Assembly: GCA_000002435.2 (NCBI GenBank)
Contig: CM018793.1
DNA from: Giardia intestinalis
Lineage: Eukaryota
Direction: 5' to 3' (one strand)
Length of the DNA stretch: 64,000 bases
Shown here: positions 4,206-21,098 of the stretch, in pieces
Numbering within the stretch: the first letter of the stretch is position 1
How the letters are laid out: each line of letters starts with the position of its first letter
Position numbers and translations under genes: made by a program
Notes under the pieces: model-generated
Told to the model about the DNA's origin: nothing
The model's input: only the letters and a program-made list of their open reading frames with translations
The model's database searches: none

Positions 4206-4215
4206 TGAATTTACT
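4204..4215. terminator. stop/poly(A) palindrome AGTGAATTTACT shared by convergent genes
   Basis: Stops at 4203-4205 (+) and 4214-4216 (-). Arms are AGTGAAT (+) and AGTAAAT (-). Confidence 0.55.
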
Positions 4216-7090: not shown

Positions 7091-7159
7091 TATTTATTTT
7101 CCCCACTCACACCAACCATTTGAAAGTGGAATCTGTTCTGAGAAAATAAAATGACGTAA
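7091..7159. promoter_or_regulatory. conserved bidirectional intergenic cassette (copy C1) with a 2-codon uORF ATG-ACG-TAA abutting the polB ATG
   Basis: The sequence is tatttattttcc...CCAACCATTTGAAAGTGGAATCT...GAGAAAATAAAATGACGTAAATG. Related cassettes lie at 11795-11867, 18294-18365 and 19231-19343, with an orphan at 20700-20747. Confidence 0.5.
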
Positions 7160-10100
7160 ATGGCAACCACTAGGGAACTCCTGACCATGCATCCCCAGCA
7201 GATGTCCGAGGACCAGCTCGCCCAGCTCAAGACGTCGCTCGAGACGCTCAACTACACCCAGCTCCGACAATACGTGCTCGGCCGCGTCAAGCCCCTCATC
7301 GAGAACGTCCGCAAGCACATCCAGGAGGACCCCGTCGGCTCGGTAGATCAAGTCCTCGACTTCCAGGACGGCTTCTGGTCCAAGGACCTGATCCAGCGCG
7401 TCCGCTGGAACCTCGCCCAGTTCAGGGTAAACGAGAAGAACCCCCGCAGAGTGCCGACCAGCAGAGCGAAGGAGGCGCTGGAGCTGAACTACATGACCGA
7501 CTACTCCTTCCGGCGCATCGTCTACCCGATCGTCGCAGACCTCGCCAAGGCTCTTTATCTCCGCGCAGAGGAAGCTAACCGCCGCAACACCGACGCTTCG
7601 GTGCGCTATGTCCCGCTTCTTGTCATGTTCAACCAGCAGAACACGTTCGGCTATCCGCCCCGCGTCGCCTTCCTCGTGACGCCTGCCGTCATCACGTTCC
7701 TCCGCGGATGGAAGGTCTTCGCCGACGGAGACGACGCCCACCAGCACTACCTCAACGCGGTCACGAGGGACGCGGCGCAGATCCACGGCGTCCAGTCCGC
7801 AGAGCCTGGCGAGATGCTCTACTGCTTCAACTGGGACCCCATTTTCGCCGGCACAGAGAGCGACCCCGAGAACCCCCGCAACGCCATGTTCTCCTTCGGG
7901 ACGATGTACGAGCCCGTCTTCATCTTCCAGATCCAGATCATCCGCACCAGAGAGGGCCAGCGGAAGCTCATCCACCGCAGGGGAGGTATGGCGCCCTTCA
8001 CGAACGACTCGTTCTTCGACCTCACGCGCTACCAGATCGAGAAGACAGGCGAGGGCTTCAAGAACAGCAAGGACACGTGTTTCCTCTACGCCCTCAAGCA
8101 GAGCGGCGTGCTGAGCGACGACGAGATACGGGCCGCCGCCTTCCACATCAACCAGGCCTCTGTCACCTTCGCGATGATCGACGCCATCGGCAAGCAGCTC
8201 TTCGTCTGCTTCCACATGCACATGGCAGACAGGGTCGTCCTCAAGGGCGCGCAGAAGAACCGCAAGGTTCCGCCGGGCGTCGCGATCCGGAACATCCACC
8301 TGGGCTTCGACTTCAACCACTACTACATCTTCGACGAGAAGCTCCCCTACAGCAAGACGTACGTGAACAACGCAGCCGTCATGATGGAGCACCACACATA
8401 CCCCGCGAACACGAACCTGCGCGAGGTCAACGTCAGAGACACCTTCCACCCGCAGACCAGGGAGCCGACGAAGAAGGTCGTCTTCGGCTACCACCGCGAC
8501 GACGACCCCCATACATGCTCGAGTCGGGACCTCATCCTCTCGCTCCACAAGCAGGGCCTCCTCAAGCCCATCCGCTCCGACAGCCTGCTGGCCATCAAGG
8601 AGTCCTTCATCCGCGAAGAGCACTACGAGGAGGACGCGCTCAACTACTGCGAGGACCAGCTGAAGGAGATCACGCCGAAGAAGAAGACCCAGTCGCCCAA
8701 GGACGTCTGGTTCGCAGACTTCGAGACGACGACCGACGGGGACCAGCACCACCCGTTCCTCCTCTGCTTCCACGGGATCAACAACGTCACGGGGACGTAC
8801 TGGGCGAAGGACTACAACAGCATCGGGGACATGGTCCGAGCGGCCTTCAACCGCCTCGCGATGCTCAACCGGCCCCAGCTGGTGTACTTCCACAACCTCA
8901 ACTACGACGGGGCCTTCGTCCTCCCGTACTTCGACGTCAAGAAGGACAGCATCGTCACCCTCGGGGCGAGCAAGATCATCGCGTTCACGATCCATGTCCG
9001 GCTGAGCGACGACCGGAAGAACAAGCCGATCCCGATCCACTTCCGGGACTCCTACGCCCTGATCACGGCTCCCCTCAGCAAGTTCGGCAAGATGTTCAAC
9101 CTCAACGTGCACAAGGAGGTCCTCCCGTACTCGTTCTACACCCAGGACAACGTCAAGAAGCTGTGCCAGGGCTTCAAGCCGACGCTCGAGGAGTACCTCT
9201 CGTACGAGATCGAGAGCAGGAGGGAGGAGCTCGAGCAGCTGCTCCGTACGCTGCCGGAGATGCTGGTAATAGACAGGGTCGACGCCTTCAAGTACGCCCA
9301 CTACTACTGCGCAAGAGACTGCCACGTGCTCAAGGACGGGGTGATGGGCTTCAGACGCCAGCTCCTCGAGGTCACGGGCATCGACGCCTTCACATCCATG
9401 ACGCTCCCGAGCATTGCCTACAACTTCCTCATCAACGAGAAGTGCTTCGAGGGCTGCTTCAACCTCAACACGGCGCCGCTCCTCTTCGTACGCCAGTGCG
9501 TGACGGGCGGGCGCTGCATGCTCCGGTGCAACGAGAAGCAGTACGTCGAGGGCGAGGTCATGGACTTCGACGCCGTCTCGCTGTATCCGTCTGCCATGGC
9601 GCGCCTCCACACCCTCATGGGCCACCCGAAGATCGTCGACCCCGAGAAGCACGACCTCGGCTGGCTCCTCCGGCAGGACGGCTGCTTCCTCGAGATCGAC
9701 ATCGAGGTCGTCCCGAAGCAGCTCGACTTCCCCCTCATCAACAGGCAGACGGAGAAGGGGAGGCACTTCTCGAACGAGCCGGGCCCGATGTTCGCCGACA
9801 ACATCACGATCGAGGACATCATCGAGTACCACAAGGTCCCGATGAACCGGATCAGGGTCCTCCGGGGCTACTACTACGACGAGGGCAAGAACACGAACAT
9901 CCAGGCCGTCATCCGGAAGATCTTCGAAGCGCGGCTCAAGTTCAAGGCGGAGGGCAACCCGCTCGAGAGCATCTACAAGCTCATCATGAACAGCTGCTAC
10001 GGGAAGAGCATCCTCAAGCCCGTCTACAAGCGGATGAACACGGTCGACCACGCGGGCCTTGAGAGAGAGCTCCTCGACAACTCGGCCGATGTCCTCTGCT

Positions 10101-10756
10101 GGGAGCCGCTCTACGACGGCGGCCGCTTCCTCCTCAAGCAGAGCAAGCCCCTTCTGGAGGCGAACAGCTTCCCGACGTTCGGGGTCCAGGTGCTCTCGAT
10201 GAGCAAGCGCATCATGACGGAGGTGATGGCGACGGCCCAGGACCACGGGCTCCCGATCTACTACACAGACACGGACAGCATCCACATCGACAAGGCGTCC
10301 ATCGAGCCCCTCCGGAACTACTTCCACGCGCGCTTCCAGCGGGAGCTCATCGGGAAGAACCTCGGCCAGTTCCACTCAGACTTCCCCGACAGCCCCTCCG
10401 GGGAGATGTTCGTCAGCCGCTACTTCATCGGCGTCGGCAAGAAGGCATACCTCGACATCCTCCAGGACAGCCAGAACAACATGAGCTACCACGCGCGCCT
10501 CAAGGGCATCCCCGAGCAGGCGATCCTCAACGAGGCCCGGCAGCGCTGCTCCCACAACTTCCTCGGCGGGCTCTACAACCTCTACGCGGACCTCTACAAC
10601 GGCGTGCCCCAGACCTTCAACCTCATCTACGACGGCGCGGTGCGCTTCGTGCGAGACGCCAGCCTCGCCTACCGCTGCAGGGACGACTTCAAGCGGAGAG
10701 TCATCTTCGAGAGGGAGCCCGATGAGCCCCTGAACATATCAAAGCTGATGCAGTAA
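7160..10756 (+). CDS. family-B DNA polymerase of the protein-primed type (pPolB), 1198 aa, with a ~500-aa N-terminal extension
   Basis: Exo I is VWFADFETTTDG (aa ~517-527). Exo II is FHNLNYDGAF (aa ~577-586). Exo III is YYCARDCHVL (aa ~715-724). Motif A is DFDAVSLYPSAM (aa 802-813). Motif B is KLIMNSCYGKS (aa 940-950). Motif C is YYTDTDSIH (aa 1034-1042). A KKAY motif lies at aa ~1094-1097. The stop lies in AGTAAAT. Confidence 0.92.
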   Translation: MATTRELLTMHPQQMSEDQLAQLKTSLETLNYTQLRQYVLGRVKPLIENVRKHIQEDPVGSVDQVLDFQDGFWSKDLIQRVRWNLAQFRVNEKNPRRVPTSRAKEALELNYMTDYSFRRIVYPIVADLAKALYLRAEEANRRNTDASVRYVPLLVMFNQQNTFGYPPRVAFLVTPAVITFLRGWKVFADGDDAHQHYLNAVTRDAAQIHGVQSAEPGEMLYCFNWDPIFAGTESDPENPRNAMFSFGTMYEPVFIFQIQIIRTREGQRKLIHRRGGMAPFTNDSFFDLTRYQIEKTGEGFKNSKDTCFLYALKQSGVLSDDEIRAAAFHINQASVTFAMIDAIGKQLFVCFHMHMADRVVLKGAQKNRKVPPGVAIRNIHLGFDFNHYYIFDEKLPYSKTYVNNAAVMMEHHTYPANTNLREVNVRDTFHPQTREPTKKVVFGYHRDDDPHTCSSRDLILSLHKQGLLKPIRSDSLLAIKESFIREEHYEEDALNYCEDQLKEITPKKKTQSPKDVWFADFETTTDGDQHHPFLLCFHGINNVTGTYWAKDYNSIGDMVRAAFNRLAMLNRPQLVYFHNLNYDGAFVLPYFDVKKDSIVTLGASKIIAFTIHVRLSDDRKNKPIPIHFRDSYALITAPLSKFGKMFNLNVHKEVLPYSFYTQDNVKKLCQGFKPTLEEYLSYEIESRREELEQLLRTLPEMLVIDRVDAFKYAHYYCARDCHVLKDGVMGFRRQLLEVTGIDAFTSMTLPSIAYNFLINEKCFEGCFNLNTAPLLFVRQCVTGGRCMLRCNEKQYVEGEVMDFDAVSLYPSAMARLHTLMGHPKIVDPEKHDLGWLLRQDGCFLEIDIEVVPKQLDFPLINRQTEKGRHFSNEPGPMFADNITIEDIIEYHKVPMNRIRVLRGYYYDEGKNTNIQAVIRKIFEARLKFKAEGNPLESIYKLIMNSCYGKSILKPVYKRMNTVDHAGLERELLDNSADVLCWEPLYDGGRFLLKQSKPLLEANSFPTFGVQVLSMSKRIMTEVMATAQDHGLPIYYTDTDSIHIDKASIEPLRNYFHARFQRELIGKNLGQFHSDFPDSPSGEMFVSRYFIGVGKKAYLDILQDSQNNMSYHARLKGIPEQAILNEARQRCSHNFLGGLYNLYADLYNGVPQTFNLIYDGAVRFVRDASLAYRCRDDFKRRVIFEREPDEPLNISKLMQ

Positions 10757-10763
10757 ATTTACT
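10752..10763. terminator. perfect 12-bp stop/poly(A) palindrome AGTAAATTTACT
   Basis: Stops at 10754-10756 (+) and 10763-10765 (-). Confidence 0.6.
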
Positions 10764-11794
10764 TAGCGCTCCATAATCTCCTTGAACCTCCCAAAGGTTA
10801 GAGGCTCAGCATTGAAGAACTTCTTCTTCCTTGCCCACGCAGAGAGACGATCGAAGAAAGCCTCAGACGATATCTGCTTGTCCCCAATGGTAAAGCTGTA
10901 ACGACGATCATGATACTCATCAATATCGAACCAGGCGTCTGTGATCGCAAACTGACGCGTAACAGCAGCTGCCTTTATCAAACAGTACTGGCCACCGCTC
11001 CATATGGTTCCCACATGACCCGGCTCTATCGCGACAACTGGGTTGTAAATGCCCTTATGCTCGAGGAGGAACTCGTTCGTCTGCCTGATCGTGTCAAGCG
11101 CATCGACCTCGCACAGACGATGAGGATCATCCGAGGCCCTGTCCTTGATGTGGTCCTCACAGACAGCCGGGTCGATAGCGAAGCGCACATGGAAGGCCGG
11201 AAGGATGCCTGCGCGGAGCATGTAGTGGTCGATCAGGTAGTGGAGGTACTGGCCTTGCTCCTTCGTGATGTAGCCGTCACTCATCTTGAAGAGGATGAAC
11301 GCGCTAGTAGACGGCAGCCAGCGGTCGAAGATGATGAAGTCGTACTGCTGATACTCTTCGGCAAAACGGCAATGAAGAAGCTGCTTCCCCAGTGCATGGA
11401 CCACCTGCTCCTGGAACTGGAAAGCAAGCTCCCTGGGGTTCTTGTAGTACTCCTCGAGGGTGATGCCTCCGTTCTGTCCAAAGTGGTTGTCTGCCACGGC
11501 CTCCTCGATGATGGTAGCTTCGAAGCCTTGGTCGATCAGGTACTTCTTGAGATGCTTGCAGAAGGTGGACTTGCCTGCGCCGATGGGACCGTCAACAACG
11601 ATGATGCGAGGATCAATGACAACAGGCGGCACAACTCTCGAACTGAAATCGCTGAGCTTCCATACGAGGTTATCGTCCATGTTGATCCCGATGTCAACTG
11701 ACTCCAGAAAGTCTTCGACTGGCCAGTGTGATGATTTACTATCGATGAGGCCTGGCTCAGCTGGCTGGTTCTGGGGCTCGTAGTACTGGCTCAT
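10763..11794 (-). CDS. deoxynucleoside kinase family protein (dNK/dCK-like P-loop kinase) with N- and C-terminal extensions
   Basis: The start was trimmed to MSQYYEPQNQ, which follows ggaaaataaa. The P-loop is VVDGPIGAGKST. Other dNK-like motifs are IIEEAV, LEEYYKNPRELAFQFQ and IIFDRWLPSTSAF (ERS-like), plus the lid-like HIKDRASDD. Order and spacing resemble Drosophila dNK and dCK/dGK. Confidence 0.75.
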   Translation of the reverse strand: MSQYYEPQNQPAEPGLIDSKSSHWPVEDFLESVDIGINMDDNLVWKLSDFSSRVVPPVVIDPRIIVVDGPIGAGKSTFCKHLKKYLIDQGFEATIIEEAVADNHFGQNGGITLEEYYKNPRELAFQFQEQVVHALGKQLLHCRFAEEYQQYDFIIFDRWLPSTSAFILFKMSDGYITKEQGQYLHYLIDHYMLRAGILPAFHVRFAIDPAVCEDHIKDRASDDPHRLCEVDALDTIRQTNEFLLEHKGIYNPVVAIEPGHVGTIWSGGQYCLIKAAAVTRQFAITDAWFDIDEYHDRRYSFTIGDKQISSEAFFDRLSAWARKKKFFNAEPLTFGRFKEIMER

Positions 11795-11867
11795 TTTATT
11801 TTCCCAGTAGTGCACGTCTCAAGAGCCAAACCATTTTAAAGTGAATTCTCCCCACGGAAATAAAAGT
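11795..11867. promoter_or_regulatory. conserved bidirectional intergenic cassette (copy C2)
   Basis: The sequence is tttattttcc...GCCAAACCATTTTAAAGTGAATTCTCCCC..GGAAATAAAAGTATG. Confidence 0.5.
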
Positions 11868-12122
11868 ATGGCTGGCCACCTTCTCAACAGCAACGGGACC
11901 GCGAAGAACGAGAACAAGCTCTACACCCAGAAGCCGACGCCCTTCTACGACGCGGGCACGGTGCCGGTCCGTCTGTCCTCGGTACCCTTCGAGAGCCGCA
12001 ACGAGCCGATCCGCGTCCAGATCGACGAGCCGCCCAAGCAGCGCCCGCGAGCTGGTCTAGTGCGCACCCGCAAGAGGATGATCCCGAGGAACCGCTGGAA
12101 GAGGAACGGGAACAAGCAGTAA
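11868..12122 (+). CDS. small basic protein (84 aa), island-specific
   Basis: The start was trimmed to MAGHLL, which follows GGAAATAAAAGT. The C-terminus is basic (RAGLVRTRKRMIPRNRWKRNGNKQ). A paralog lies at 18366-18617. The stop lies in AGTAAAC. Confidence 0.55.
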   Translation: MAGHLLNSNGTAKNENKLYTQKPTPFYDAGTVPVRLSSVPFESRNEPIRVQIDEPPKQRPRAGLVRTRKRMIPRNRWKRNGNKQ

Positions 12123-12131
12123 ACGTTTACT
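12118..12131. terminator. perfect 14-bp stop/poly(A) palindrome AGTAAACGTTTACT
   Basis: Stops at 12120-12122 (+) and 12127-12129 (-). Confidence 0.6.
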
Positions 12132-12723
12132 TCGAGATCTCCTCGAGGAAGCGGTTGAAGGTGTTCGTCTCGGTGGAGGCGTTGAGGAAGCGCTGGATGC
12201 CGTCAGCCCACGCCTGGGCGCTCTCGTCGCTGATGCTGAGACAGGTGGCTGTGTACGTGCGCTTGTTCTTGGGAAGCCTCGAGAGCCTCACGAACTCGTC
12301 TCCGGTCTCCTCGTAGAGATAGAAGGCAGAGCGTGCTCCATCAGAAGCGCGTCTGCAGAAAGCGGTGTAGTGAGGGGCTTGCACGAACTCGTCCTCGGGT
12401 CGCTTGACGAAGCGGAAGACGACGCCCTGCTGGTTGAGCCACTTGCAGAACCAGGAGGTGACTCGCTGATAGTCCTCAGTACCCTCAGCGCACTCTGCGG
12501 TGACTCGACCGAGCAGTCTTCCGACCTGGCCGCAAAAGGACTTAAACGCGGGACTGGACGGGGCGGGAGGATTTGCCACTGGCAGAACGGGCTCGGCGTC
12601 GGCGGTCTGTCGCTGTCGGGTTCTAGAGGCAGACTTCCTATGAGTGGGCTCTCTGGAGGAAGGAATGACATCTTGAAGGAAGGGGTCCTCGGCGAAGTGC
12701 TCTGGTATGAATCCATCTGCCAT
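12127..12723 (-). CDS. hypothetical protein (198 aa), island-specific
   Basis: The protein begins MADGFIPEHF and the ATG follows aggaaaataaaataagc. A paralog lies at 18622-19230, with the C-terminal ~130 aa well conserved. Confidence 0.6.
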   Translation of the reverse strand: MADGFIPEHFAEDPFLQDVIPSSREPTHRKSASRTRQRQTADAEPVLPVANPPAPSSPAFKSFCGQVGRLLGRVTAECAEGTEDYQRVTSWFCKWLNQQGVVFRFVKRPEDEFVQAPHYTAFCRRASDGARSAFYLYEETGDEFVRLSRLPKNKRTYTATCLSISDESAQAWADGIQRFLNASTETNTFNRFLEEISK

Positions 12724-12754
12724 GCTTATTTTATTTTCCTGGGAGCCCTGTAAC

Positions 12755-12826
12755 CAGATCAGATCAGAATTGATTCCTGATCAATTCGGACGAAGCGACG
12801 ACTCCAGAAAAAAAAATAACGCTGAC
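12755..12826. repeat. partial copy of the 5' part of repeat module R (GATCA/GAATTGAT iteron-like array plus A9-TAACGCTGAC)
   Basis: Patchy match to 13702-13792 and 19809-19905. It includes the 8-bp inverted repeat GAATTGAT-tcctg-ATCAATTC. Confidence 0.6.
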
Positions 12827-12839
12827 GTGAATTCGATGT

Positions 12840-13679
12840 TTACTTTGCAAACAGCTTTACGATGTCTTCCTTGTCTCCGGCAATGGCCAACGCAAAAACC
12901 CTACCATTATTGATGTCCTTCTCCTTATCTGCCAACAAAGCAGCACAAGCAGCATGGCCATTTCTCACAGCCCACTCGAAAGCAGTACCACGGGCGTTAT
13001 TGCATAACCTGGCCTCCTTATCTAACAACAGCTTGACGATGTCTGCGTAACCACAGGATGCTGCTAGCATGAGAGCGGTCCAGCCGTCGTTATCCTTCAT
13101 GCCTGCCTCCTTCTCCGCTAATAGGTTAGCGCACTTAGTGTGACCCTTACACGCAGCCCACATGAGAGCAGTCCTACCATCTTTATTCTTCATGCCGGCC
13201 TCCTTCTCTAACAACAGCTTAACGCTGTATGCGGAATCCTTGGATGCTGCTATTATGAGAGCCGACCCGCAGCATCTCGCACATATACCGGCCTCCTTCT
13301 TCACTAGCAGGTCAACGCACTTAAAATTAAACTTACTCACAGCCCACATGAGGGCGGTCCTACCGATGACATCCTTCATACCAGCCTCCTTCTCTAACAG
13401 CAGCTTAACGCAGTCTGTATAGCCTTCGGATGCTGCTATCATGAGAGCCGTCAAGCCGTGTCCATCACTCATACCAGCCTCCTTCTCCACTAGCAGGTTA
13501 GCGCAGTTAGTATGACCCTCCCTCGCAGCCCACATGAGGGCAGTCCAGCTGTTGAAATCCCTCAGGCCAGCCTCCTTGTCTACTAGTTCCCTGACGACAT
13601 CGATGTTACCTTGCGCTGCTGCTTCTATGAGATCCCTAAAACCATATCCTGGCGACTTGTATTCTCGATAAGCCTTCAT
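12840..13679 (-). CDS. ankyrin-repeat protein (279 aa, ~8 repeats of the TALMWAA..GH..CV.LL..KEAG type)
   Basis: A regular ~33-aa ANK periodicity runs through the whole ORF. The start is ggaaaataaaatATG. The stop lies in AAGTAAAC. Confidence 0.88.
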   Translation of the reverse strand: MKAYREYKSPGYGFRDLIEAAAQGNIDVVRELVDKEAGLRDFNSWTALMWAAREGHTNCANLLVEKEAGMSDGHGLTALMIAASEGYTDCVKLLLEKEAGMKDVIGRTALMWAVSKFNFKCVDLLVKKEAGICARCCGSALIIAASKDSAYSVKLLLEKEAGMKNKDGRTALMWAACKGHTKCANLLAEKEAGMKDNDGWTALMLAASCGYADIVKLLLDKEARLCNNARGTAFEWAVRNGHAACAALLADKEKDINNGRVFALAIAGDKEDIVKLFAK

Positions 13680-13701
13680 ATTTTATTTTCCTCCCCGCCC
13701 T

Positions 13702-14161
13702 GAATCAATTAATCAGATCAGAATCAATTCGTCAGAATGGTTTGCACTTCCTGACTGCCGCCTCCCAGAAAAAAAAAATAACGCTGGCCTGCTTTCTGCT
13801 TTCGGGCTGTCTGTATGTCGCACTTCGGTGTCGTGCGGGCCCGGGGGCAGGGAGCAGACCAGGCTGGCCGGCAGCTGAACCGGGCGCGAACGCATCACAC
13901 ACATCCAAGGACAACGCGGTCTCCTCCCGGCGTGCACGGCACCACGCTGGGCGGTTCCGGGGGGAGGCCGCGATTTTTTTTGAAAATTTACAGGTTTTTT
14001 ATTCTGTTGAAAAGTAGGTAAACGAGCGCCAGCGTGTGGGAGCCTAGTGGGCGGACCGGCACACGCAGACGCACTTGTGGGGGACGCTTTCGTTTTTTTG
14101 GGCCCAGCCCCGTGCAGGCCCAAAAAAACGAAAGTGGGCACCACAAGGATATATACTACTG
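13702..14161. repeat. repeat module R, copy A (~460 bp)
   Basis: Colinear with 19809-20231. The order is a GAATCA array, A10-TAACGCT, a conserved core GTATGTCGCAC..GGTGTCGTGCGGGC, ~190 bp of GC-rich sequence, T8 and an AT-rich tract, an 18-bp-stem hairpin (14087-14134), then GGATATATACTACTG. Homology stops abruptly after this last motif. Confidence 0.85.
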
Positions 14162-17100
14162 ACGCCCGCCGTCATCACGTTCCTCCGCGGCTGGAAGGTC
14201 TTCGCAGACGGCGACGACGCGCACCGGCACTACCTCAACGCGGTTACGAAGGACGCGGCGCAGATCCACGGCGTCCAGTCTGCAGAGCCCGGCGAGATGC
14301 TCTACTGCTTCAACTGGGACCCGGTCTTCGGGGGCACTGAGAGCGACCCCGAGAACCCCCACAACGCGCTCTTCTCGTTCGGGACGATGTACGAACCCGT
14401 CTTCTTCTTCCAGATCCAGATCGTGCGCATGAAGGATGGCCAGCGGAAGTTCATCCACCGGCGCGGCGGCCTGGCCCCCTTCACGAACGACTCGTTCTTC
14501 GACCTCAACCGCTACCAGATCGAGCGGACAGGCGAAGGCTTTCGGAACAGCAAGGACACGTGCTTCCTCTACGCTCTCAAGCAGAGCGGGCAGCTGAACG
14601 ACGAGGAGATCAAGGCCGCGGCGCTCCACATCAACCAGGCGGCGGTCACGTTCGCGATGGTCGACGCGATCGGCAAGCAGCTCTTCATCTGCTTCCACAT
14701 GCACATGCCGGACAGGGTCGTCCTCCGGGGCGCACAGAAGGGCCGCAAGCTCCCGCCCGGCGTCGCACTCCGGAACATCCAGATAGGCTTCGACTTCAAC
14801 CACTACTACATCTTCGACGAGAAGCTCCCCTACAGCAAGGCGTACGTGAACCACGCGTCCGTGATGATGGAGCACAACGCGTACCCGGAGAACGCGAACG
14901 TCCGCGAGGTCAGCGTCCGGAACACCTTCCACCCGGAGACCCGGGAGCCGATGCAGAAGGTCGTCTTCGGCTACCACCGCGACGACGACCCCCACACGTG
15001 CACGAGCCGCGACCTCCTCCTCTCGCTCCACAAGCAGGGCCTCCTCCGCCCGATCCGCTCAGACGACCTCCTCGCCGTCAAGGAGTCCTTCATCCGCGAG
15101 GAACACTACGCGGAGGACAACCTCGAGTTCTGCGAGAACCAACTCAAGAAGATCGAGCCCAAGAAGAAGCAGGCCCCGCCGAAGGACGTCTGGTTCGCGG
15201 ACTTCGAGACGACGACCGACGGGGACCAGCACCACCCGTTCCTCCTCTGCTTCCACGGGGCGAACAATGTGACGGGGACTACTGGGCGAAGGACTACACA
15301 GCATCGGGGACATGGTCCAGCGGCCTTCCCGCCTCGCGACCTCAACCGGCCCCAGCTGGTTACTTCACAACCTCAACTACGACGGGGCCTTCGTCCTCCC
15401 GTACTTCGACGTCAAAAGGACAGCATCGTCACCCTCGGGGCGAGCAAGATCATCGCGTTCACATCCACATCCGACTGAGCGACGACCGGAAGAACAAGCC
15501 GATCCCGATCCACTTCCGGGACTCCTACGCCCTGATCACGGCGCCCCTCAGCAAGTTCGGGAAGATGTTCAACCTCGACGTCCACAAGGAGGTCCTCCCG
15601 TACTCGTTCTACACGCAGGAGAACGTCCGCAAGCTCGCAGAGGGCTACCGGCCGACCCTCGAGGAGTACCTCTCGTACGAGATGGAGAGCAGACGGACCG
15701 AGCTCGAGCAGCTGGTCCGCATGCTGCCGGGGATGCTCGTCGAGGACCGCGTCGATGCGCTCCGCTACGCCCACTACTACTGCGCGCGGGACTGTCACGT
15801 GCTCAAGGAGGGCGTCCTCCGCTTCCGGCAGCAGCTCCTCGAGGTCACCGGGATCGACGCGTTCACGTCCATGACTCTCCCGAGCGTCGCGTACAACTAC
15901 CTCATCAACGAGAAGTGCTTCGAGGGCTGCTTCAACCTCAACACGGCTCCGCTTCTCTTCGTGCGCCAGTGCGTGACGGGCGGGCGCTGCATGCTCCGGA
16001 ACAACGAGAAGCAGTACGTCGAGGGCGAGATCATGGACTTCGACGCGGTCTCCCTGTACCCGTCCGCAATGGCGCGCATCTACACCCTCAAGGGCCACCC
16101 GAAGGTCGTCGACCCCGAGAAGCACGACCTCGGCTGGCTCCTCCGCCAGGACGGCTGCTTCCTCGAGATAGACATTCAGATCGTCCCGAAGACCCTCGAC
16201 TTCCCCCTCATCAACCGCCAGACGGAGAAGGGCCGCCACTTCTCAAACGAGCCAGGCCCGATGTTCGCGGACAACATCACGATCGAGGACATCATCGAGT
16301 ACCACAAGGTCCCGATGAACCGAATCCGCGTCCTCCGGGGCTACTACTACGACGAGGGGAAGAACTTCGCCATCCAGACCGTTATCCGGAAGCTCTTCGA
16401 TACGCGCCTCAAGTTCAAGGCGGAGGGCAACCCCCTTGAGAGCATCTACAAGCTCATCATGAACAGCTGCTACGGGAAAAGCATCCTCAAGCCCGTCTTC
16501 AAGCGGATGAACACCGTCGACCGGGCCGGGCTCGAGCGGGAGCTCCTCGACAACTCCGCCGACATCCTCTGCTGGGAGCCGCTCTACGACGGCGGCCGCT
16601 TCCTCCTCAAGCAGAGCCGCCCGCTCCTCATGGCGAACAGCTTCCCGACGTTCGGCGTCCAGGTCCTCTCGATGAGCAAGCGCATCATGACGGAGGTGAT
16701 GGCAACGGCCCAGGACCACGCGCTCCCGATCTACTACACGGACACCGACAGCATCCACATCGACAAGCGGTCAATAGAGCCGCTCCGGAACTACTTCCAC
16801 GCGCGCTTCCACCGCGAGCTCATCGGCAAGAACCTCGGCCAGTTCCACTCGGACTTCCCCGACAGCCCCTCCGGCGAGATGTTCGTCAGCCGCTTCTTCG
16901 TCGGCGTCGGCAAGAAGGCGTACCTCGACATCCTCCAGGACAGCCAGGGCCACATGAGCTACCACGCGCGCCTCAAGGGCATCCCCGAGCAGGCGATCCT
17001 CAACGAGGCCCGCCAGCGCTGCGCCCAGAACTTCCTCGGCGGGCTCTACAACCTCTACGCCGACCTCTACAACGGCGTCCCCCAGACCTTCAACCTCATC

Positions 17101-17229
17101 TACGACGGCGCCGTCCGCTTCGTCCGCGACGCGCACCTCGCCTACCGCTGCCGCGACGACTTCAAGCGCCGCGTCATCTTCGAGAAGGAGCCCGACGCGC
17201 CCCTGAACGTCGTCAAGCTCATGCAGTGA
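14162..17229 (+). pseudogene. second pPolB copy, 5'-truncated (starts at the equivalent of aa ~173) and frame-broken around Exo II
   Basis: The 14075-15478 frame and the 14560-17229 frame together are colinear with polB aa ~173-1198. Motifs A, B, C and KKAY are intact (DFDAVSLYPSAM, KLIMNSCYGKS, YYTDTDS). A net 10 nt are missing between 15274 and 15474. There is no ATG or promoter at the 5' junction with module R. Confidence 0.85.
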
Positions 17230-17236
17230 ATTTACT
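17225..17236. terminator. stop/poly(A) palindrome AGTGAATTTACT
   Basis: Stops at 17227-17229 (+) and 17232-17234 (-). Confidence 0.55.
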
Positions 17237-18293
17237 CCATGCTGCTCTCCTCGTCGCGCGCAAGGACCTCCTGGAACTCATCAAACGACAAGGCCATCAT
17301 CTGCATGCGGCGCTTGAACGGATTGACGAACCTCCCATATGCGGTCCAATCGCAGAGCTCGTTGAAGAAGACAAACGCGTTGATCCTGCGCATCCCGATC
17401 TGGACGAAGTAGCGGCGGTCCTCGCCGAGGAAGAGAGTATTCTCGACAACGTACTGGCGCGTCACCCTCGCGGCCGCGACGAGCGAGAACTGGTTCCCCG
17501 CCGAGAAGGCCTTGCTCCACTCGGTGTCCGCTGGATGGTTCAGGTTGAAGACCGGCGTGTAGACGCCCTTGTGCTTGAGGAGGAACTCGTTCGTCTTACT
17601 CACGACCCCGAGCGCGTCCTCCTCGCACTGGCGGTGTTCCTCCTCAGCAGCGCGCTGGACGATACGCTGCGCACAGATCAGCGGGTCCGTCGCAAAGCGG
17701 ACGTGTGTCGCCGGAAGGATCCCCGCGTACGACATGTAGACGTCGATCAGGTAGTGGAGGTACATCGCCTGGCGGCCCGTAATATGGCCCTCCTGCACCT
17801 GGAAAAGGACGAACGCACTCGTCGAGGGCAGCCAGCGGTCGAAGATGACGAGGTCGTAGTCCTTGTACTTGTCCGTGAAGCGGTACTCGAGGAGCTGGTC
17901 TGCGAGAGCATGTGTGACGGCGAGCTGGAAGCGGTACGCGTTGGCGTGCGGGTCCCTGTAATACTCGTCGAGCGTGATCCCGTACGCGCTGAAGCACTCG
18001 AGCCCCACAACCTCCTCGATGACCACTGCCTTCAGCCCGCTGTCCTGGGCGTGCTCGACAAGGCGGCGGCAGAAGAGGGACTTGCCGGCCCCGATGGGTC
18101 CGTCGACGACAATCATGCGCGGATCGACGCACGCCGGCGGGATGACGGATGCGTGCCGCGCCAGGCTCAACCCGCGAAGAGTGGACAGCTTCGAGTTCAC
18201 CTCGAGCAGCTCCTCGGACACGTCGTAGTAGAGGCTCGAGTGGCGGACAAGCTCGGTCCCGGGCTGGTTCTGGGGCTCGTAGTACAGGCTCAT
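17232..18293 (-). CDS. deoxynucleoside kinase family protein, divergent paralog of 10763-11794
   Basis: The start was trimmed to MSLYYEPQNQ, which follows ggaaataaa. The P-loop is VVDGPIGAGKSL. Also present are LDEYYRDPHANAYRFQ, VIFDRWLPSTSAF and HYLIDVYM. The ORF is intact. Roughly half its residues are shared with copy 1. Confidence 0.72.
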   Translation of the reverse strand: MSLYYEPQNQPGTELVRHSSLYYDVSEELLEVNSKLSTLRGLSLARHASVIPPACVDPRMIVVDGPIGAGKSLFCRRLVEHAQDSGLKAVVIEEVVGLECFSAYGITLDEYYRDPHANAYRFQLAVTHALADQLLEYRFTDKYKDYDLVIFDRWLPSTSAFVLFQVQEGHITGRQAMYLHYLIDVYMSYAGILPATHVRFATDPLICAQRIVQRAAEEEHRQCEEDALGVVSKTNEFLLKHKGVYTPVFNLNHPADTEWSKAFSAGNQFSLVAAARVTRQYVVENTLFLGEDRRYFVQIGMRRINAFVFFNELCDWTAYGRFVNPFKRRMQMMALSFDEFQEVLARDEESSME

Positions 18294-18365
18294 TTTATTT
18301 CCTGGCGGCCTCCCCAATAAATGCCAAAGCATTTGAAAGTGAATTCTCCCGCCAAAAATAAAAGT
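18294..18365. promoter_or_regulatory. conserved bidirectional intergenic cassette (copy C3)
   Basis: The sequence is tttatttcc...GCCAAAGCATTTGAAAGTGAATTCTCCCGCCAAAAATAAAAGTATG. Confidence 0.5.
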
Positions 18366-18617
18366 ATGGCAGGCCACCTCCTCAGCAGCAAGGGGACCAC
18401 GAAAAACGAGAACAAGCTCTTCACCCAGAAGCCGACGCCCTTCTACGACGCAGGCACCGTCCCGGTCCGCCTCGCGTCCGTGCCCTTCGAGAACCGCAAC
18501 GAGCCGATTCGCGTCCAGATCGACGAGCCGCCCAAGCCCCGCCCTCGCGCAGGCCTCGTCCGCACCCGCAAGAGGCTGATCCCGAGGAACCGCTGGAAGA
18601 AGAACACGTACCAGTAA
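18366..18617 (+). CDS. small basic protein (83 aa), paralog of 11868-12122
   Basis: The protein reads MAGHLLSSKGTTKNENKLFTQKPTPFYDAGTVPVRL... About 70 of its first 79 residues are identical to copy 1. Confidence 0.55.
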   Translation: MAGHLLSSKGTTKNENKLFTQKPTPFYDAGTVPVRLASVPFENRNEPIRVQIDEPPKPRPRAGLVRTRKRLIPRNRWKKNTYQ

Positions 18618-18626
18618 ATGTTTACT
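18613..18626. terminator. stop/poly(A) palindrome AGTAAA-tg-TTTACT
   Basis: Stops at 18615-18617 (+) and 18622-18624 (-). Confidence 0.55.
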
Positions 18627-19230
18627 TCGAGATCTCCTCGAGGAAGCGAGCGAACGTGCCCGGCTCGGTCGAGGCGTTGAGGAAGCACTGGATGCCCTCT
18701 GCCCACTGCAGCGCCTGCTCGTCGGTGAGGCACGGACTTGTCGCCGTGTACGAGCGCTTGAACTTCGGGAGCCGCGACAGCCTCACTAACTCCTCCCCGG
18801 TCTCCTCTAAGAGGTAGAAGGCAGAGCGCACTCCATCTGATGCTCGCCTGCAGAAGGCGGTGTAGTGGGGCGCGCGCACGAACTCGTCCTCGGGCCTCTT
18901 GACGAAGCGGAAGATGACCCCGAGCTGGTTGAGCCACTGGCAGAACCAGGCCGTGACTCGCTCGTAGTCCTCCGTGCCCTCGGCGCAGTCGGCAGTAATG
19001 CGGCCCAGTAGTCTTCCCACCTGGCCACAGAAGCTCTTGAAGGGCGGGCCGGCGCGGGCGGATGTCTGCTGTGCGGGCTCGGGGTGCGAAGTCTGCTGAA
19101 CGGGGTCGGGGTCGGCGTGCGCTCGAGCCTTGAGGGGGCTTCGCTTGCGAGAGGATCCTCGAGGAGGGAGGGCGATGTCTTGCGTGAAGAGGTCCTCGGT
19201 GTAATGCTCAGGAATGATGCCATCTGCCAT
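18622..19230 (-). CDS. hypothetical protein (202 aa), paralog of 12127-12723
   Basis: The start was trimmed to MADGIIPEHY, matching copy 1. The core FKSFCGQVGRLLGR.TA.CAEGTEDY.RVT.WFC.WLNQ.GV.FRFVKRPEDEFV.APHYTAFCRRASDG is shared. Confidence 0.6.
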   Translation of the reverse strand: MADGIIPEHYTEDLFTQDIALPPRGSSRKRSPLKARAHADPDPVQQTSHPEPAQQTSARAGPPFKSFCGQVGRLLGRITADCAEGTEDYERVTAWFCQWLNQLGVIFRFVKRPEDEFVRAPHYTAFCRRASDGVRSAFYLLEETGEELVRLSRLPKFKRSYTATSPCLTDEQALQWAEGIQCFLNASTEPGTFARFLEEISK

Positions 19231-19343
19231 GCGTCCTTTTATTTTCTTGACGCTCCTATCATAAAGACGCAAACCATTTCAAATCCACTTCTACCAAACA
19301 ATATTAAATTCACTTCCTTCCGGCGTCTGCAGAAAAAAAAAAA

Positions 19344-19787
19344 ATGCTGGACCTCCGCAAGCTTAACAAGGAGGACTTCGAGCAGGCCATAGCCACCTTC
19401 ATCGAGCGTGCTCTTGACCTCGAACGGCCGGAAGATCTGAACAAAGACGAGCCGATTTATAACAGAAGCTATCTCCAGATCGACCCCGTCACGCACGGAG
19501 AGTATAACCTCACCCCGGCCGTTCTCTGGTCGCTGATAGTTATGACACTGACCTCCTATGGCCTTACAATGTTTACTGAGGACGACTGTCTTTGCGTGCA
19601 ATATGGCAAAATATACAAGTTTCCCATCGAGCCGGCAGACGAAGACGTTCTCAGAGAGATACACTATGCCATACACGTTGAAGCGACAGAAGACTTGGAA
19701 CTCTTCCCCCAGACCGAAGAGGAGATCGTGGCAGCGTTCAAACAGATACTTGGCGGACAGATAGAATTCCACATCCGACCCAAGTAA
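19344..19787 (+). CDS. hypothetical acidic protein (147 aa), found only in unit 2
   Basis: The ATG directly follows an ~11-nt A-run. The stop lies in AAGTAAAC. No paralog is present in unit 1. It occupies the slot held by the ankyrin gene in unit 1. Confidence 0.5.
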   Translation: MLDLRKLNKEDFEQAIATFIERALDLERPEDLNKDEPIYNRSYLQIDPVTHGEYNLTPAVLWSLIVMTLTSYGLTMFTEDDCLCVQYGKIYKFPIEPADEDVLREIHYAIHVEATEDLELFPQTEEEIVAAFKQILGGQIEFHIRPK

Positions 19788-19808
19788 ACCTGCGCTCCTC
19801 GGTCATGC

Positions 19809-20231
19809 GAATCAATTCCCGAATCAGAATCAAATCAAAATCAATTCGTCACAATTAATTGCACGAGGGGTCTCACAGGGCTCAGAAAAAAAAAATTACG
19901 CTGACCTGCCGGGCTGTCTGTATGTCGCACCTCGGTGTCGTGCGGGCCCGACAGGCTGGCTGGCTGGCCGGCAGCTGAACTGAGCCTCGAACGTACCACA
20001 CCCACAACGCGTCTCCTCCCGGCGTGCACAGTTCACGCTGGGCGGTTCCGGGGGGAGGCGCGTTTTTTTTAGAAAAATTACAGGTTTTTTATTCTATCAA
20101 AAATCATAATGTTTGGACGGGAGATTGCAGCAGGGAGAACAAAATCGCGGCGGTCGTTTTCGTTTTTTTGGGTAAGGCCCCCGGCCGGCCCAAAAAAACG
20201 AAAGCGGGCGCCTCGAGGATATATACTACTG
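19809..20231. repeat. repeat module R, copy B (~423 bp)
   Basis: Same element order as copy A: GAATCA array, A10-TTACGCT, GTATGTCGCACCTCGGTGTCGTGCGGGC, GC-rich core, T8, hairpin at 20158-20203, GGATATATACTACTG. Confidence 0.85.
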
Positions 20232-20359
20232 GCGTGCTCCCTGTAGAGGTGATCGCGCTCTCTACGTTGATCGAGCACGATATTGTACAACTTCTTCACT
20301 TTGAGGTTGCGGCGCCTTATTTGGGTTCTAGCTCGTTCAAAGAGCTCCCCGTCGGTTCT

Positions 20360-20445
20360 AACAGGCCCCAGCTCGTCCACTTCCACAGCCTCAACTACGA
20401 CGGGGCTTTCATCCTTCGACATCAAGGAGGACTCCATCGTCACCG
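20360..20445 (+). pseudogene. third, isolated pPolB fragment covering only the Exo II region
   Basis: It translates to RPQLVHFHSLNYDGAFI....DSIVT, compared with polB NRPQLVYFHNLNYDGAFVLPYFDVKKDSIVT. The flanks are unrelated to polB. Confidence 0.65.
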
Positions 20446-20699
20446 CACGAGGCACCCCGCAGGTCCGGGAGGGCCCGAGCATCGGCCAATCCACGACAGC
20501 ACCAACGATGGCGAAGCAGACCCACAACCATCCCACACTCTGGGCCGGACTCCCGCCCCGCGGGCCCTACTCTGCCCCGCCGCCGCTGGCCCTGCGCCCT
20601 GGGTCGGAGCGGCGGCCCGCGCCCCCGCAAGCCTCTCGGCCGCCGGAGATGCCGCGGCGCCACGCGCTGGGCCGCCCCGGGACCCGGCGCCGTCTTCCA

Positions 20700-20800
20700 A
20701 AAAACCCAAACCATTGCAAATCGGAATCTCTCCCGGAAAATAAAATGACGCCGGCGCTGCCGGTATGTCGCACCGAGGTGTCGTGCGGGCGCCTGGAAGG
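20700..20800. repeat. orphan copy of the polB-type promoter cassette fused to the R-module core
   Basis: The sequence is ACCCAAACCATTGCAAATCGGAATCTCTCCCGGAAAATAAAATGACG (compare 7112-7156), followed by GGTATGTCGCACCGAGGTGTCGTGCGGGC (compare 13812-13840). Confidence 0.6.
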
Positions 20801-20864
20801 CCTTTCCTCAAGCCCCTCTGCGGAGGGCAGGGCAAGAGCCTGCGCGGCCTGCCCTGGGCGCTGT

Positions 20865-21098
20865 TTACTTCGGCTGGCTCCCGTGGGAGAGCACAACCGA
20901 GACCTTGCGGCAAGCCCTCCCCTGGCCGAGCGTGAACCTGACAGTGAGCTGGTCCAGGCGCATCACAGCGCGGAACGCGGCTCGAACGGTGCGGGGGAGG
21001 GCTCGAACGGCTCGAGCGATGCAGAGGAGCCTCGAGAAGATCCCGGGCGGCCTCGGGGGGTGCTCCAGAGGCGGCGTCGGAATGGTGGCATCAGACAT
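20865..21098 (-). CDS. possible small ORF (77 aa). It is the only ORF in the GC-rich block with both a host-type initiator and a poly(A) motif.
   Basis: The ATG follows ggaaataaaaagcagcgacc. The stop TAA lies inside AAGTAAAC. It sits in very GC-rich sequence where random ORFs abound. Confidence 0.3.
   Translation of the reverse strand: MSDATIPTPPLEHPPRPPGIFSRLLCIARAVRALPRTVRAAFRAVMRLDQLTVRFTLGQGRACRKVSVVLSHGSQPK

What the first reader, a model, noticed from the sequence alone, without database searches (positions are those of the whole stretch)
15274..15474. Ten single-base deletions, no insertions, packed into 200 bp of otherwise near-identical sequence across Exo II of the second polB
Seen: the interval from GGGGAC to (G/A)CTGAGCGAC is 210 nt in copy 1 (8791-9001) and 200 nt in copy 2 (15274-15474). 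The alignment needs about ten scattered 1-nt gaps, for example gacGtac, acaAcag, tccGagc, ttcAAccg, ggtGtac, ttcCac and caaGaag. Apart from the gaps only a handful of substitutions occur, so this tract is more similar to copy 1 than its flanks are. Everything upstream (~370 codons) and downstream (~580 codons) stays open. The net effect is a -1 frame change and loss of the NLNYDGAF exonuclease motif. Inference: one option is a recent gene-conversion tract followed by unusual deletion-biased damage. The other is a consensus or polishing artefact where reads from the two paralogs were mixed. If it is an artefact, copy 2 is an intact, N-terminally truncated polymerase ORF.
Basis: seen in the sequence. 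Interest (0 to 1): 0.55.

Follow-up and report, generated by a model that had tools for sequence, protein, structure and literature searches.

The report
Assembly artefact in Giardia polymerase paralog
The ten missing bases that break the second DNA-polymerase gene are most likely errors of the long-read Giardia reference assembly, made where the gene's alleles differ. The gene itself is probably intact.

Summary
Copy 2 of a tandemly duplicated protein-primed family-B polymerase gene lacks ten single bases within 184 nt (15280-15463). There are no other net indels over about 2,900 aligned nt.

The window is Giardia intestinalis WB, from the PacBio/Quiver chromosome assembly. The 2007 Sanger assembly of the same clone encoded an intact 980-aa copy 2 (XP_001707491.1). 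That protein equals the window's translation at 913 of 980 residues and differs only across the tract, where it is identical to copy 1.

The tract is a real ectopic gene-conversion patch from copy 1 into copy 2: 17 consecutive donor-type sites, against 38% donor-type elsewhere. It is co-extensive with the deletions. Seven of the ten deletions fall on sites where copy 1 differs from copy 2's closest relative (p≈7e-4). The other three fall on third codon positions.

This is the published signature of spurious deletions at heterozygous sites in PacBio consensus, which Illumina polishing cannot repair.

Best reading: copy 2 is heterozygous for the conversion patch and the consensus dropped the disputed bases. 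Copy 2 is an intact, N-terminally truncated gene (dN/dS 0.22). No reads were inspected, so this remains an inference.

The parts
7160..10756 (+). polB copy 1: an intact 1198-aa protein-primed family-B DNA polymerase. It is the exact sequence of XP_001707488.1 / KAE8305704.1 of Giardia intestinalis WB.
   Evidence: ORF list. Pfam PF03175, E=5e-37. Exact-sequence look-up.
8791..9001 (+). Donor-type tract in copy 1 (codons about 545-614, spanning Exo II NLNYDGAF). This is the counterpart of the damaged tract in copy 2.
   Evidence: Alignments.
14297..17229 (+). polB copy 2. Homology to copy 1 starts at 14160, which is codon 174 of copy 1. The first ATG is at 14297. Once the ten bases are restored it reads as the 980-aa protein XP_001707491.1 of the 2007 assembly.
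   Evidence: The window translation equals P0015 at residues 1-328 and 396-980 with no differences. P0015 hits PF03175 at E=1e-37. dN/dS is 0.22 against copy 1 and 0.18 against L005.
15274..15474 (+). The tract of the finding: ten 1-nt gaps relative to copy 1, plus 4 substitutions.
15281..15439 (+). Minimal ectopic gene-conversion patch from copy 1 into copy 2. The outer limits are 15272-15465. All 17 unambiguous informative sites are copy-1-type, whereas the flanks are L005-type.
   Evidence: The protein of the old assembly is 67/67 identical to copy 1 across this stretch.
7677..14159 (.). Tandem unit 1: the polB 3' part, dNK, an 84-aa ORF, a 198-aa ORF, an ankyrin-repeat gene and a spacer.
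   Evidence: Repeat families D2-D7. Alignment. Pfam.
14160..20234 (.). Tandem unit 2: truncated polB, dNK2, an 83/98-aa ORF, a 202-aa ORF, a 147-aa ORF and a spacer. The unit is real: its 3' part is present in Illumina-only Logan assemblies from 20 or more samples.

Best explanation
The ten deletions are not in the organism's DNA. They are consensus errors of the PacBio RS II / HGAP3 / Quiver assembly of Giardia intestinalis WB (AACB03), from which this window comes.

What is really there is a 6.5-kb tandem duplication. Its second polymerase gene is N-terminally truncated but otherwise intact (980 aa).

A patch of about 160-190 nt of copy 2, across Exo II, has been overwritten by copy 1 through ectopic gene conversion. 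I infer that this conversion is present in only some of the four genome copies of this tetraploid cell. Reads at the copy-2 locus would then be a mixture of a copy-1-type allele and an unconverted allele that differ at roughly 20-30 clustered sites.

A haploid long-read consensus caller treats extra read bases as cheap and mismatches as dear. It therefore tends to drop the disputed base and leave a 1-nt deletion.

The later Illumina correction required a single alternative with at least 50% support. It could not restore these bases, because the two alleles propose two different inserted bases.

Shown: the deletions, the conversion patch, the intact Sanger-era protein, and the assembly method.

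Inferred: the heterozygosity, and the exact step at which the bases were lost.

Artefact of any cause: about 0.88. This specific mechanism: about 0.6.
For: 1. Source. Copy 1 and its neighbours are exact matches to Giardia WB proteins KAE8305702-710, on a 4,018,654-bp contig. That assembly was built with PacBio RS II, HGAP3, Quiver and PBJelly. Its authors saw frameshift errors from PacBio reads. [quoted passage not shown]

2. Independent sequence. XP_001707491.1 (P0015, 980 aa, from the 2007 Sanger assembly of the same clone) carries copy-2-specific flanks. It is identical to the window's copy-2 translation at residues 1-328 and 396-980. It differs only across the tract, where it reads through in frame and is 67/67 identical to copy 1.

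3. Annotation. In the new annotation no protein accession exists for copy 2. The numbering runs 704 (polB1), 705, 706, [707], 708 (dNK2). XP_001707491.1 now survives only in EukProt.

4. Conversion patch. The tract is a run of 17 copy-1-type informative sites, against 38% copy-1-type elsewhere in the gene. It is bounded by L005-type sites at 15271 and 15466. The first and last deletions (15280 and 15463) lie at its two ends.

5. Position of the deletions. Seven of ten fall exactly on sites where copy 1 differs from L005, the closest relative of copy 2 (random placement gives p≈7e-4). The other three (8890, 8941, 8989) are all third codon positions. One substitution in the tract (G8863C) is the L005 state.

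6. Precedent. McKenzie & Kronauer 2018 (PMC6211649) report 'spurious deletions at heterozygous loci' after PacBio/Quiver polishing. Illumina polishing could not fix them because the two alleles appear as two different insertions.

7. Selection. Outside the tract, copy 2 has no stop codon or frameshift in about 950 codons, and dN/dS is 0.18-0.22.

8. Toy simulation. A greedy consensus was run from the copy-1-type draft, with extra read bases scored at the insertion rate. A 50:50 allele mix gave 16 deletions, all at or next to variant sites, with 0 insertions and 1 substitution. A 75:25 mix gave 1 deletion. A 100:0 mix gave none.
Against: No raw reads were seen. The unconverted allele is inferred only from where the deletions fall. 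It was not found in any database.

L005 is only a 91%-identical proxy for the unconverted allele.

The test of deletion positions against variant sites was designed after looking at the alignment.

With a fully generative error model (insertion emission 0.25), the simulation gave substitutions and insertions, not deletions. The mechanism therefore depends on how the real consensus caller scores, which I could not run.

WB is reported as nearly homozygous (0.01-0.03%), so a tract with 20 or more heterozygous sites would be unusual.

The old 11x Sanger assembly could in principle have picked one allele or misplaced reads.

I did not see the GenBank record itself. That the deletions are present in AACB03 is inferred from the missing protein.
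Confidence: 0.6

Rival explanations
1. The deletions are an assembly artefact with a different cause. Copy 2 is homozygous for the copy-1-type patch. The ten bases were lost in a locally poor consensus, for example at an HGAP contig end, a stitched contig overlap or a PBJelly-filled patch inside the tandem repeat. Illumina correction then failed because 75-nt reads from the patch align perfectly to copy 1 and leave copy 2 uncovered.
For: The assembly involved stitching overlapping contigs and PBJelly gap filling. The patch and its near flanks are 93-98% identical to copy 1 over about 400 nt, so short reads would prefer the error-free copy 1. An intact Sanger-era protein exists.
Against: This does not explain why 7 of 10 deletions sit on copy-1-versus-L005 variant sites and the other 3 on third codon positions. 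It does not explain why the deletion zone ends exactly at the limits of the conversion patch. Two later rounds of Quiver at about 200x should have repaired a merely low-coverage patch. Raw PacBio errors are mostly insertions, not deletions (general knowledge).
Confidence: 0.27
2. The deletions are real and recent. After the 2007 sequencing, or in one of the four genome copies, copy 2 acquired ten 1-nt deletions during error-prone repair synthesis, or during faulty processing of heteroduplex mismatches, in the gene-conversion event. Copy 2, or one allele of it, would then be a new pseudogene.
For: The deletions are co-extensive with a real conversion patch and lie at the sites that would have been mismatched in the heteroduplex. 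Synthesis associated with double-strand-break repair is known to be mutagenic, with -1 frameshifts (established knowledge from yeast mitotic gene conversion). The new annotation treats the gene as non-coding.
Against: The same clone sequenced by Sanger has the converted patch without any deletion. So conversion and deletion would have to be separate events. Ten deletions per about 190 nt (5% per base) with no insertions exceeds any known polymerase or repair error rate by orders of magnitude. There is no other sign of decay in about 950 codons. The pattern matches a documented sequencing artefact.
Confidence: 0.08
3. The gaps are meaningful at the RNA or protein level, through programmed frameshifting or insertional RNA editing that restores the frame.
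For: None beyond the fact that the flanking frames are open.
Against: There are ten separate sites with no shared slippery motif or sequence context. The missing bases are G, A, T and C. Copy 1 and all orthologues encode the same peptide directly. The Sanger genomic sequence of the same locus was already in frame. No such editing is known in Giardia (general knowledge).
Confidence: 0.01

Closest known systems
Spurious deletions at heterozygous sites in PacBio CLR / Quiver-polished assemblies (described for the clonal raider ant genome, PMC6211649)
   Same: The technology and polishing steps are the same (PacBio, PBJelly, Quiver, then Illumina). The errors are single-base deletions at sites where two haplotypes differ. 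They survive short-read polishing because each allele proposes a different insertion.
   Different: In the ant genome the sites are scattered SNPs of a diploid. Here about ten are packed into 184 nt, because the heterozygosity itself would come from one ectopic conversion patch in a tetraploid that is otherwise almost homozygous. Heterozygosity here is inferred, not observed.
PacBio homopolymer frameshift errors acknowledged for this assembly (Xu, Jex & Svard 2020, PMC7000408)
   Same: It is the same assembly. The consequence is the same: full-length genes are truncated by frameshifts relative to the 2007 version.
   Different: At most three of the ten missing bases lie in a run, and none of those runs is longer than 2 nt. 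The errors are clustered, and they escaped the authors' Illumina correction.
Ectopic (interlocus) gene conversion between tandem paralogs
   Same: A short donor-type patch (160-190 nt) sits inside a paralog that is otherwise about 11% diverged. The patch has sharp boundaries and the donor lies 6.5 kb upstream in cis. Gene conversion in GC-rich genes of Giardia assemblage AI is documented (PMC12669663).
   Different: The published Giardia cases concern tracts between sub-assemblages with a median length of 3.3 kb. This one is a very short tract between paralogs within one genome.
Protein-primed family-B2 DNA polymerases of Polinton/Maverick type, such as those of Entamoeba histolytica (PMC3511435)
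   Same: Both hit the PF03175 domain. Exo I (FADFETT), Exo II (NLNYDGAF), motif A (DAVSLYPS), motif B (KLIMNSCYGK) and motif C (YTDTDS) are all present. Both have a long N-terminal region without known homology.
   Different: No integrase, ATPase, protease or capsid gene lies beside it. The neighbours are a deoxynucleoside kinase, an ankyrin-repeat protein and hypothetical genes. The synteny is conserved across Giardia lineages. It therefore behaves as a resident gene and not as a mobile element.

Membership tests
Long-read consensus artefact at heterozygous sites | The sequence comes from a noisy long-read assembly polished with a haploid consensus caller. | tested here: met
   The window's proteins equal KAE83057xx of the 4.02-Mb contig. 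The assembly used PacBio RS II, HGAP3, Quiver and PBJelly.
Long-read consensus artefact at heterozygous sites | An independent, accurate sequence of the same strain lacks the indels. | tested here: met
   XP_001707491.1 (2007 Sanger assembly) is in frame across the tract and identical to the window elsewhere, at 913/913 residues. This was tested at the protein level only.
Long-read consensus artefact at heterozygous sites | The errors sit at positions where two haplotypes differ. | tested here: inconclusive
   Seven of ten fall on sites that differ between copy 1 and L005, the proxy for the second allele (p≈7e-4). The other three fall on third codon positions. The second allele itself was not observed.
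Long-read consensus artefact at heterozygous sites | Read pile-ups show the missing base present in the reads, as two alternative bases. | not testable with these tools
Genuine pseudogene | The frame disruptions are reproducible in independent sequence of the same organism. | tested here: not met
   The old-assembly protein is intact.
Genuine pseudogene | Relaxed constraint (dN/dS near 1) and disruptions spread along the gene. | tested here: not met
   dN/dS is 0.22 against copy 1 and 0.18 against L005. There are no stops or net indels in about 950 codons outside the tract. A very recent inactivation would also look like this.
Ectopic gene-conversion tract | A run of donor-type states at informative sites, flanked by non-donor states, longer than chance allows. 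| tested here: met
   There are 17 consecutive copy-1-type sites, against a background frequency of 0.38 (0.38^17 ≈ 7e-8 per start position). The run is bounded by L005-type sites at 15271 and 15466.
Ectopic gene-conversion tract | The tract is seen in an independent data set, so it is not a chimeric consensus. | tested here: met
   The Sanger-era protein is 67/67 identical to copy 1 in the tract while carrying copy-2 flanks.
Protein-primed family-B DNA polymerase (Pfam PF03175) | A Pfam hit above the gathering score, plus the Exo I-II and Pol A-C motifs. | tested here: met
   Copy 1 scores 128 bits and copy 2 (P0015) 130 bits, against a cut-off of 25.8. The motifs were located in both. Protein priming itself was not tested.
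Polinton/Maverick element | An adjacent retroviral-type integrase, packaging ATPase, protease and capsid genes, plus terminal inverted repeats. | tested here: not met
   The neighbouring ORFs that were scanned, at 1776-13679 and 17226-22691, gave only dNK, ankyrin and coiled-coil hits or no hit. No inverted repeat of 60 nt or more exists in the window.

The most novel reading that the evidence does not exclude
The deletions are real in at least one allele. They would have been made at the mismatched positions of the heteroduplex during ectopic gene conversion between the two polymerase paralogs. That would point to a deletion-prone way of processing mismatches, or an extremely error-prone repair synthesis, in Giardia.
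Probability: 0.05. Interest if true: 0.7.

Novelty: not a real feature. Interest (0 to 1): 0.18.

Why it matters
The matter is mainly practical. The current reference genome of a major human parasite appears to have lost one protein-coding gene, the second protein-primed polymerase (formerly XP_001707491.1), to a local consensus error.

The error pattern is deletion-only, sits outside homopolymers, and clusters on a gene-conversion patch. That pattern is a recognisable flag for hidden allelic differences in long-read assemblies of polyploid organisms.

If the inferred heterozygous patch is confirmed, it is also a small, datable example of ectopic gene conversion acting on only some genome copies of an asexual tetraploid.

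Tried and rejected
1. Phage or giant-virus origin. This was suggested by ankyrin, aaRS and dNK genes, the protein-primed polymerase and hairpins. There was no match in the phage collection, and exact protein look-ups place the window in Giardia WB.

2. Illumina-based confirmation from Logan contigs. Contigs carrying dNK2 stop 148 nt into the 3' end of copy 2, because k-mers are shared with copy 1. The unitigs that would span the first or last deletion are about 70 nt, too short for the protein-based look-up. P0015 and both frameshifted fragments are not on record.

3. Search for the unconverted allele or other copy-2 fragments. A homology search with P0015 returned no short WB-type fragments. 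Two exact DNA scans of JGI metagenomes with copy-2-specific flanks found nothing.

4. Copy 2 in other isolates. The P15 contig and the assemblage-E-type contigs carry only copy 1.

5. A well-specified pair-HMM maximum-likelihood consensus on a 50:50 allele mix did not give deletion-only errors. Only the variant that scores extra read bases at the insertion rate did. The simulation is therefore an illustration and not proof.

6. Mixing of reads from the two paralogous loci as the cause. This was rejected as the main cause because the two genes differ at about 11% of sites along 3 kb, yet only the conversion patch is damaged.

7. Programmed frameshift or RNA editing. This was rejected on the anatomy: ten sites, no shared motif, and a mix of missing bases.
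Full report
**1. The observation**

GGGGAC to (G/A)CTGAGCGAC spans 210 nt in copy 1 (8791-9001) and 200 nt in copy 2 (15274-15474).

A pairwise alignment of the two genes needs ten unpaired single-base gaps in copy 2. They lie before positions 15280, 15298, 15319, 15329 (two bases), 15340, 15361, 15366, 15416 and 15463. There are no unpaired insertions.

Outside this stretch the genes align without any net indel:
- 1,120 nt upstream at a constant offset of 6483, with 86.8% identity.
- 1,767 nt downstream at a constant offset of 6473, with 89.5% identity.

Ten indels placed at random over 3,070 nt would all fall in one 184-nt span with probability of about 1e-10.

Within the tract only four substitutions separate the copies. 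The frames on both sides are open. The net shift is -1. The Exo II peptide NLNYDGAF is left in a third frame.

**2. Where the window comes from**

That guess was wrong.

The copy-1 protein is the exact sequence of XP_001707488.1 / KAE8305704.1 of Giardia intestinalis WB clone C6, on a 4,018,654-bp contig. The neighbouring genes are KAE8305702, 703, 705, 706, 708, 709 and 710.

This is the chromosome-scale assembly AACB03 of Xu, Jex & Svard 2020. Its construction was as follows:
- PacBio RS II reads at about 200x, assembled with HGAP3 and polished with Quiver.
- Contigs stitched on optical maps, gaps filled with PBJelly, and Quiver run again.
- The authors then noticed genes truncated by frameshifts from PacBio reads.

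**3. Anatomy of the locus**

The polymerase lies in a tandem duplication of about 6.5 kb. Unit 1 is 7677-14159 and unit 2 is 14160-20234. Each unit carries, in order:
- the polymerase (+);
- a deoxynucleoside kinase (-);
- a small ORF (+);
- a roughly 200-aa ORF (-);
- a spacer.

The duplication junction at 14160 falls at codon 174 of the polymerase, so copy 2 lacks the N-terminus.

The duplication is real. The 3' part of unit 2 is found in Illumina-only Logan assemblies from 20 or more samples.

Copy 1 and copy 2 are old paralogs (dS 0.34). Both have been under purifying selection: dN/dS is 0.22 between them and 0.18 between copy 2 and its closest relative. Both score above the Pfam threshold for PF03175 and keep all exonuclease and polymerase motifs.

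**4. The decisive comparison**

The protein cluster that holds copy 1 also holds XP_001707491.1 (P0015). This is a 980-aa 'DNA polymerase, putative' from the 2007 Sanger assembly of the same clone.

P0015 has the copy-2-specific residues on both sides of the tract. It is identical to the window's copy-2 translation at residues 1-328 and 396-980, with no differences. It differs only over the 67 residues of the tract. There it runs straight through in frame and is 67/67 identical to copy 1.

In the new annotation there is no protein for copy 2. The accession series leaves no slot for it, both frameshifted fragments are absent from the collection, and XP_001707491.1 survives only in EukProt.

So the same clone sequenced with an accurate chemistry had an intact gene. 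The window differs from that gene only in one 200-nt patch.

**5. What is special about the patch**

I compared copy 1, copy 2 and single-copy orthologues from other Giardia lineages recovered from public assemblies (L005, L002 and the P15-type contigs).

Over the gene as a whole, copy 2 is closer to L005 (91%) than to copy 1 (89%). At sites where copy 1 and L005 differ, copy 2 sides with L005 at 213 sites and with copy 1 at 144.

Between 15281 and 15439, however, all 17 unambiguous informative sites are copy-1-type. The run is bounded by L005-type sites at 15271 and 15466.

This is a short ectopic gene-conversion patch from copy 1 into copy 2. Because the Sanger-era protein shows it too, it is not a chimera made by one assembler.

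**6. Link between the patch and the deletions**

Seven of the ten deleted bases are exactly the bases at which copy 1 differs from L005. Random placement within the tract reaches seven in only 0.07% of trials. This test was devised after seeing the alignment.

The remaining three (copy-1 positions 8890, 8941 and 8989) are all third codon positions, where a silent difference in the true unconverted allele would be expected.

One of the four substitutions in the tract (G8863C) is the L005 state. Another (G8996A) makes the window differ from the Sanger protein (Ile for Val), and L002 also carries an A at that position.

Together these points say that two sequence versions met at this locus when the consensus was called: a copy-1-type version and an ancestral copy-2-type version. 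Bases were dropped where the two disagreed.

**7. Mechanism**

This signature is documented. For the clonal raider ant genome (PacBio, PBJelly, Quiver, then Pilon), McKenzie & Kronauer report 'spurious deletions at heterozygous loci'. Illumina polishing could not fix them, because each allele appears as a different insertion.

The Giardia correction rule has the same blind spot: it needed one alternative with at least 50% support.

The mixture must be local. The two paralogous loci differ at about 11% of sites over 3 kb, and only the patch is damaged. This argues against reads of copy 1 being recruited to copy 2. It argues for two alleles of copy 2 that differ only in the patch.

Giardia trophozoites have two diploid nuclei, so a conversion present in some of the four copies would produce such a mixture.

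I tested plausibility with a toy greedy consensus on simulated reads from the two presumed alleles:
- When extra read bases are charged only the insertion rate, a 50:50 mix starting from the copy-1-type draft gave 16 deletions. All were at or next to variant sites, with no insertions and one substitution.
- A 75:25 mix gave one deletion, and a pure population gave none.
- With a fully generative model (insertion emission of one quarter), the same mix gave substitutions and insertions.

The simulation therefore shows the signature is attainable. It does not show that Quiver produced it.

**8. Alternatives**

- **A locally poor consensus at a contig end or a PBJelly patch.** Short reads would then be diverted to the perfect copy 1. 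This is compatible with the method description. It does not explain the position of the deletions or their exact fit to the patch. I give it about 0.27.
- **Real deletions.** These could be recent or in one allele, perhaps made at heteroduplex mismatches. This would fit the positions. It requires the conversion (already present in 2007 without deletions) and the deletions to be separate events, and a per-base deletion rate of 5% with no insertions. I give it about 0.08 in total, of which the heteroduplex version is about 0.05.
- **Recoding or RNA editing.** This is excluded by the anatomy.

**9. Limits**

I saw no raw reads and not the old DNA, only its protein. The unconverted allele is inferred. 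Searches for it, or for any Illumina-derived copy-2 fragment across the tract, found nothing usable. That the deletions are present in the GenBank record is inferred from the missing protein.

**10. Verdict**

The locus carries a real, short gene-conversion patch. The ten deletions are most likely consensus drop-outs at sites where alleles differ. Copy 2 is most likely an intact, N-terminally truncated polymerase gene that the current reference has wrongly lost.

Biological novelty is low. The value lies in correcting the reference and in recognising the error signature.

Noticed in passing
window 20360-20444: A third, short remnant of the polymerase gene lies in a degraded third unit just after unit 2. 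It covers only the Exo II region (NRPQLV.FH.LNYDGAF...DSIVT, copy-1 residues 570-600). It carries a 6-nt deletion and several substitutions. It matches the same segment as the damaged tract.
   Followed up: partly
window 14079-14164 and 20149-20234: An 86-nt direct repeat (83% identical) contains a perfect 20-bp hairpin, CTTTCGTTTTTTTGGGCC...GGCCCAAAAAAACGAAAG (DNA fold -29 kcal/mol, z = -7.1). It is followed by GGATATATACTACTG. The first copy ends at the duplication junction (14160). It could be a terminator-like element or a site that favoured the rearrangement.
   Followed up: partly
window 14160-19250 versus L005:10491-15606 and L002:10514-14992: Unit 2 is more similar to the single-copy loci of other Giardia lineages than unit 1 is (87.5% against 72-81%). 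This is clearest for the deoxynucleoside kinase. Those single-copy loci nevertheless have a full-length polymerase and the upstream synteny of unit 1. This suggests that unit 1's 3' genes evolved fast, or that there were old unequal exchanges between the units.
   Followed up: partly
L018 (Giardia P15, ACVC01000219.1) 12710 versus window 14160: The assemblage E contig follows the window through unit 1 and the spacer. It departs exactly at the duplication junction into an unrelated 730-aa gene. Assemblage-E-type Logan contigs run through polB1 without a break. The duplication may therefore be absent from assemblage E.
   Followed up: partly
window 18622-19230 (-) and 12127-12723 (-): The 202-aa ORF of unit 2 (old XP_001707496.1, GL50803_15893) has no accession in the new annotation. 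Its 198-aa paralog in unit 1 was added as a new gene (KAE8305706.1, GL50803_0060433). The two paralogs are treated inconsistently.
   Followed up: no
window 12840-13679 (-): This is an ankyrin-repeat gene of 279 aa with five 93-nt repeat units (repeat family D1). Its exact product from the first ATG is not in the protein collection, although all its neighbours are. The cause may be a different annotated start or a sequence difference between assemblies.
   Followed up: no
window 8001-10000 and 14001-18000: The polymerase-bearing stretches are 61-63% G+C, against roughly 50-54% for most of the window. This agrees with the published remark that Giardia genes involved in gene conversion are GC-enriched (PMC12669663).
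   Followed up: no
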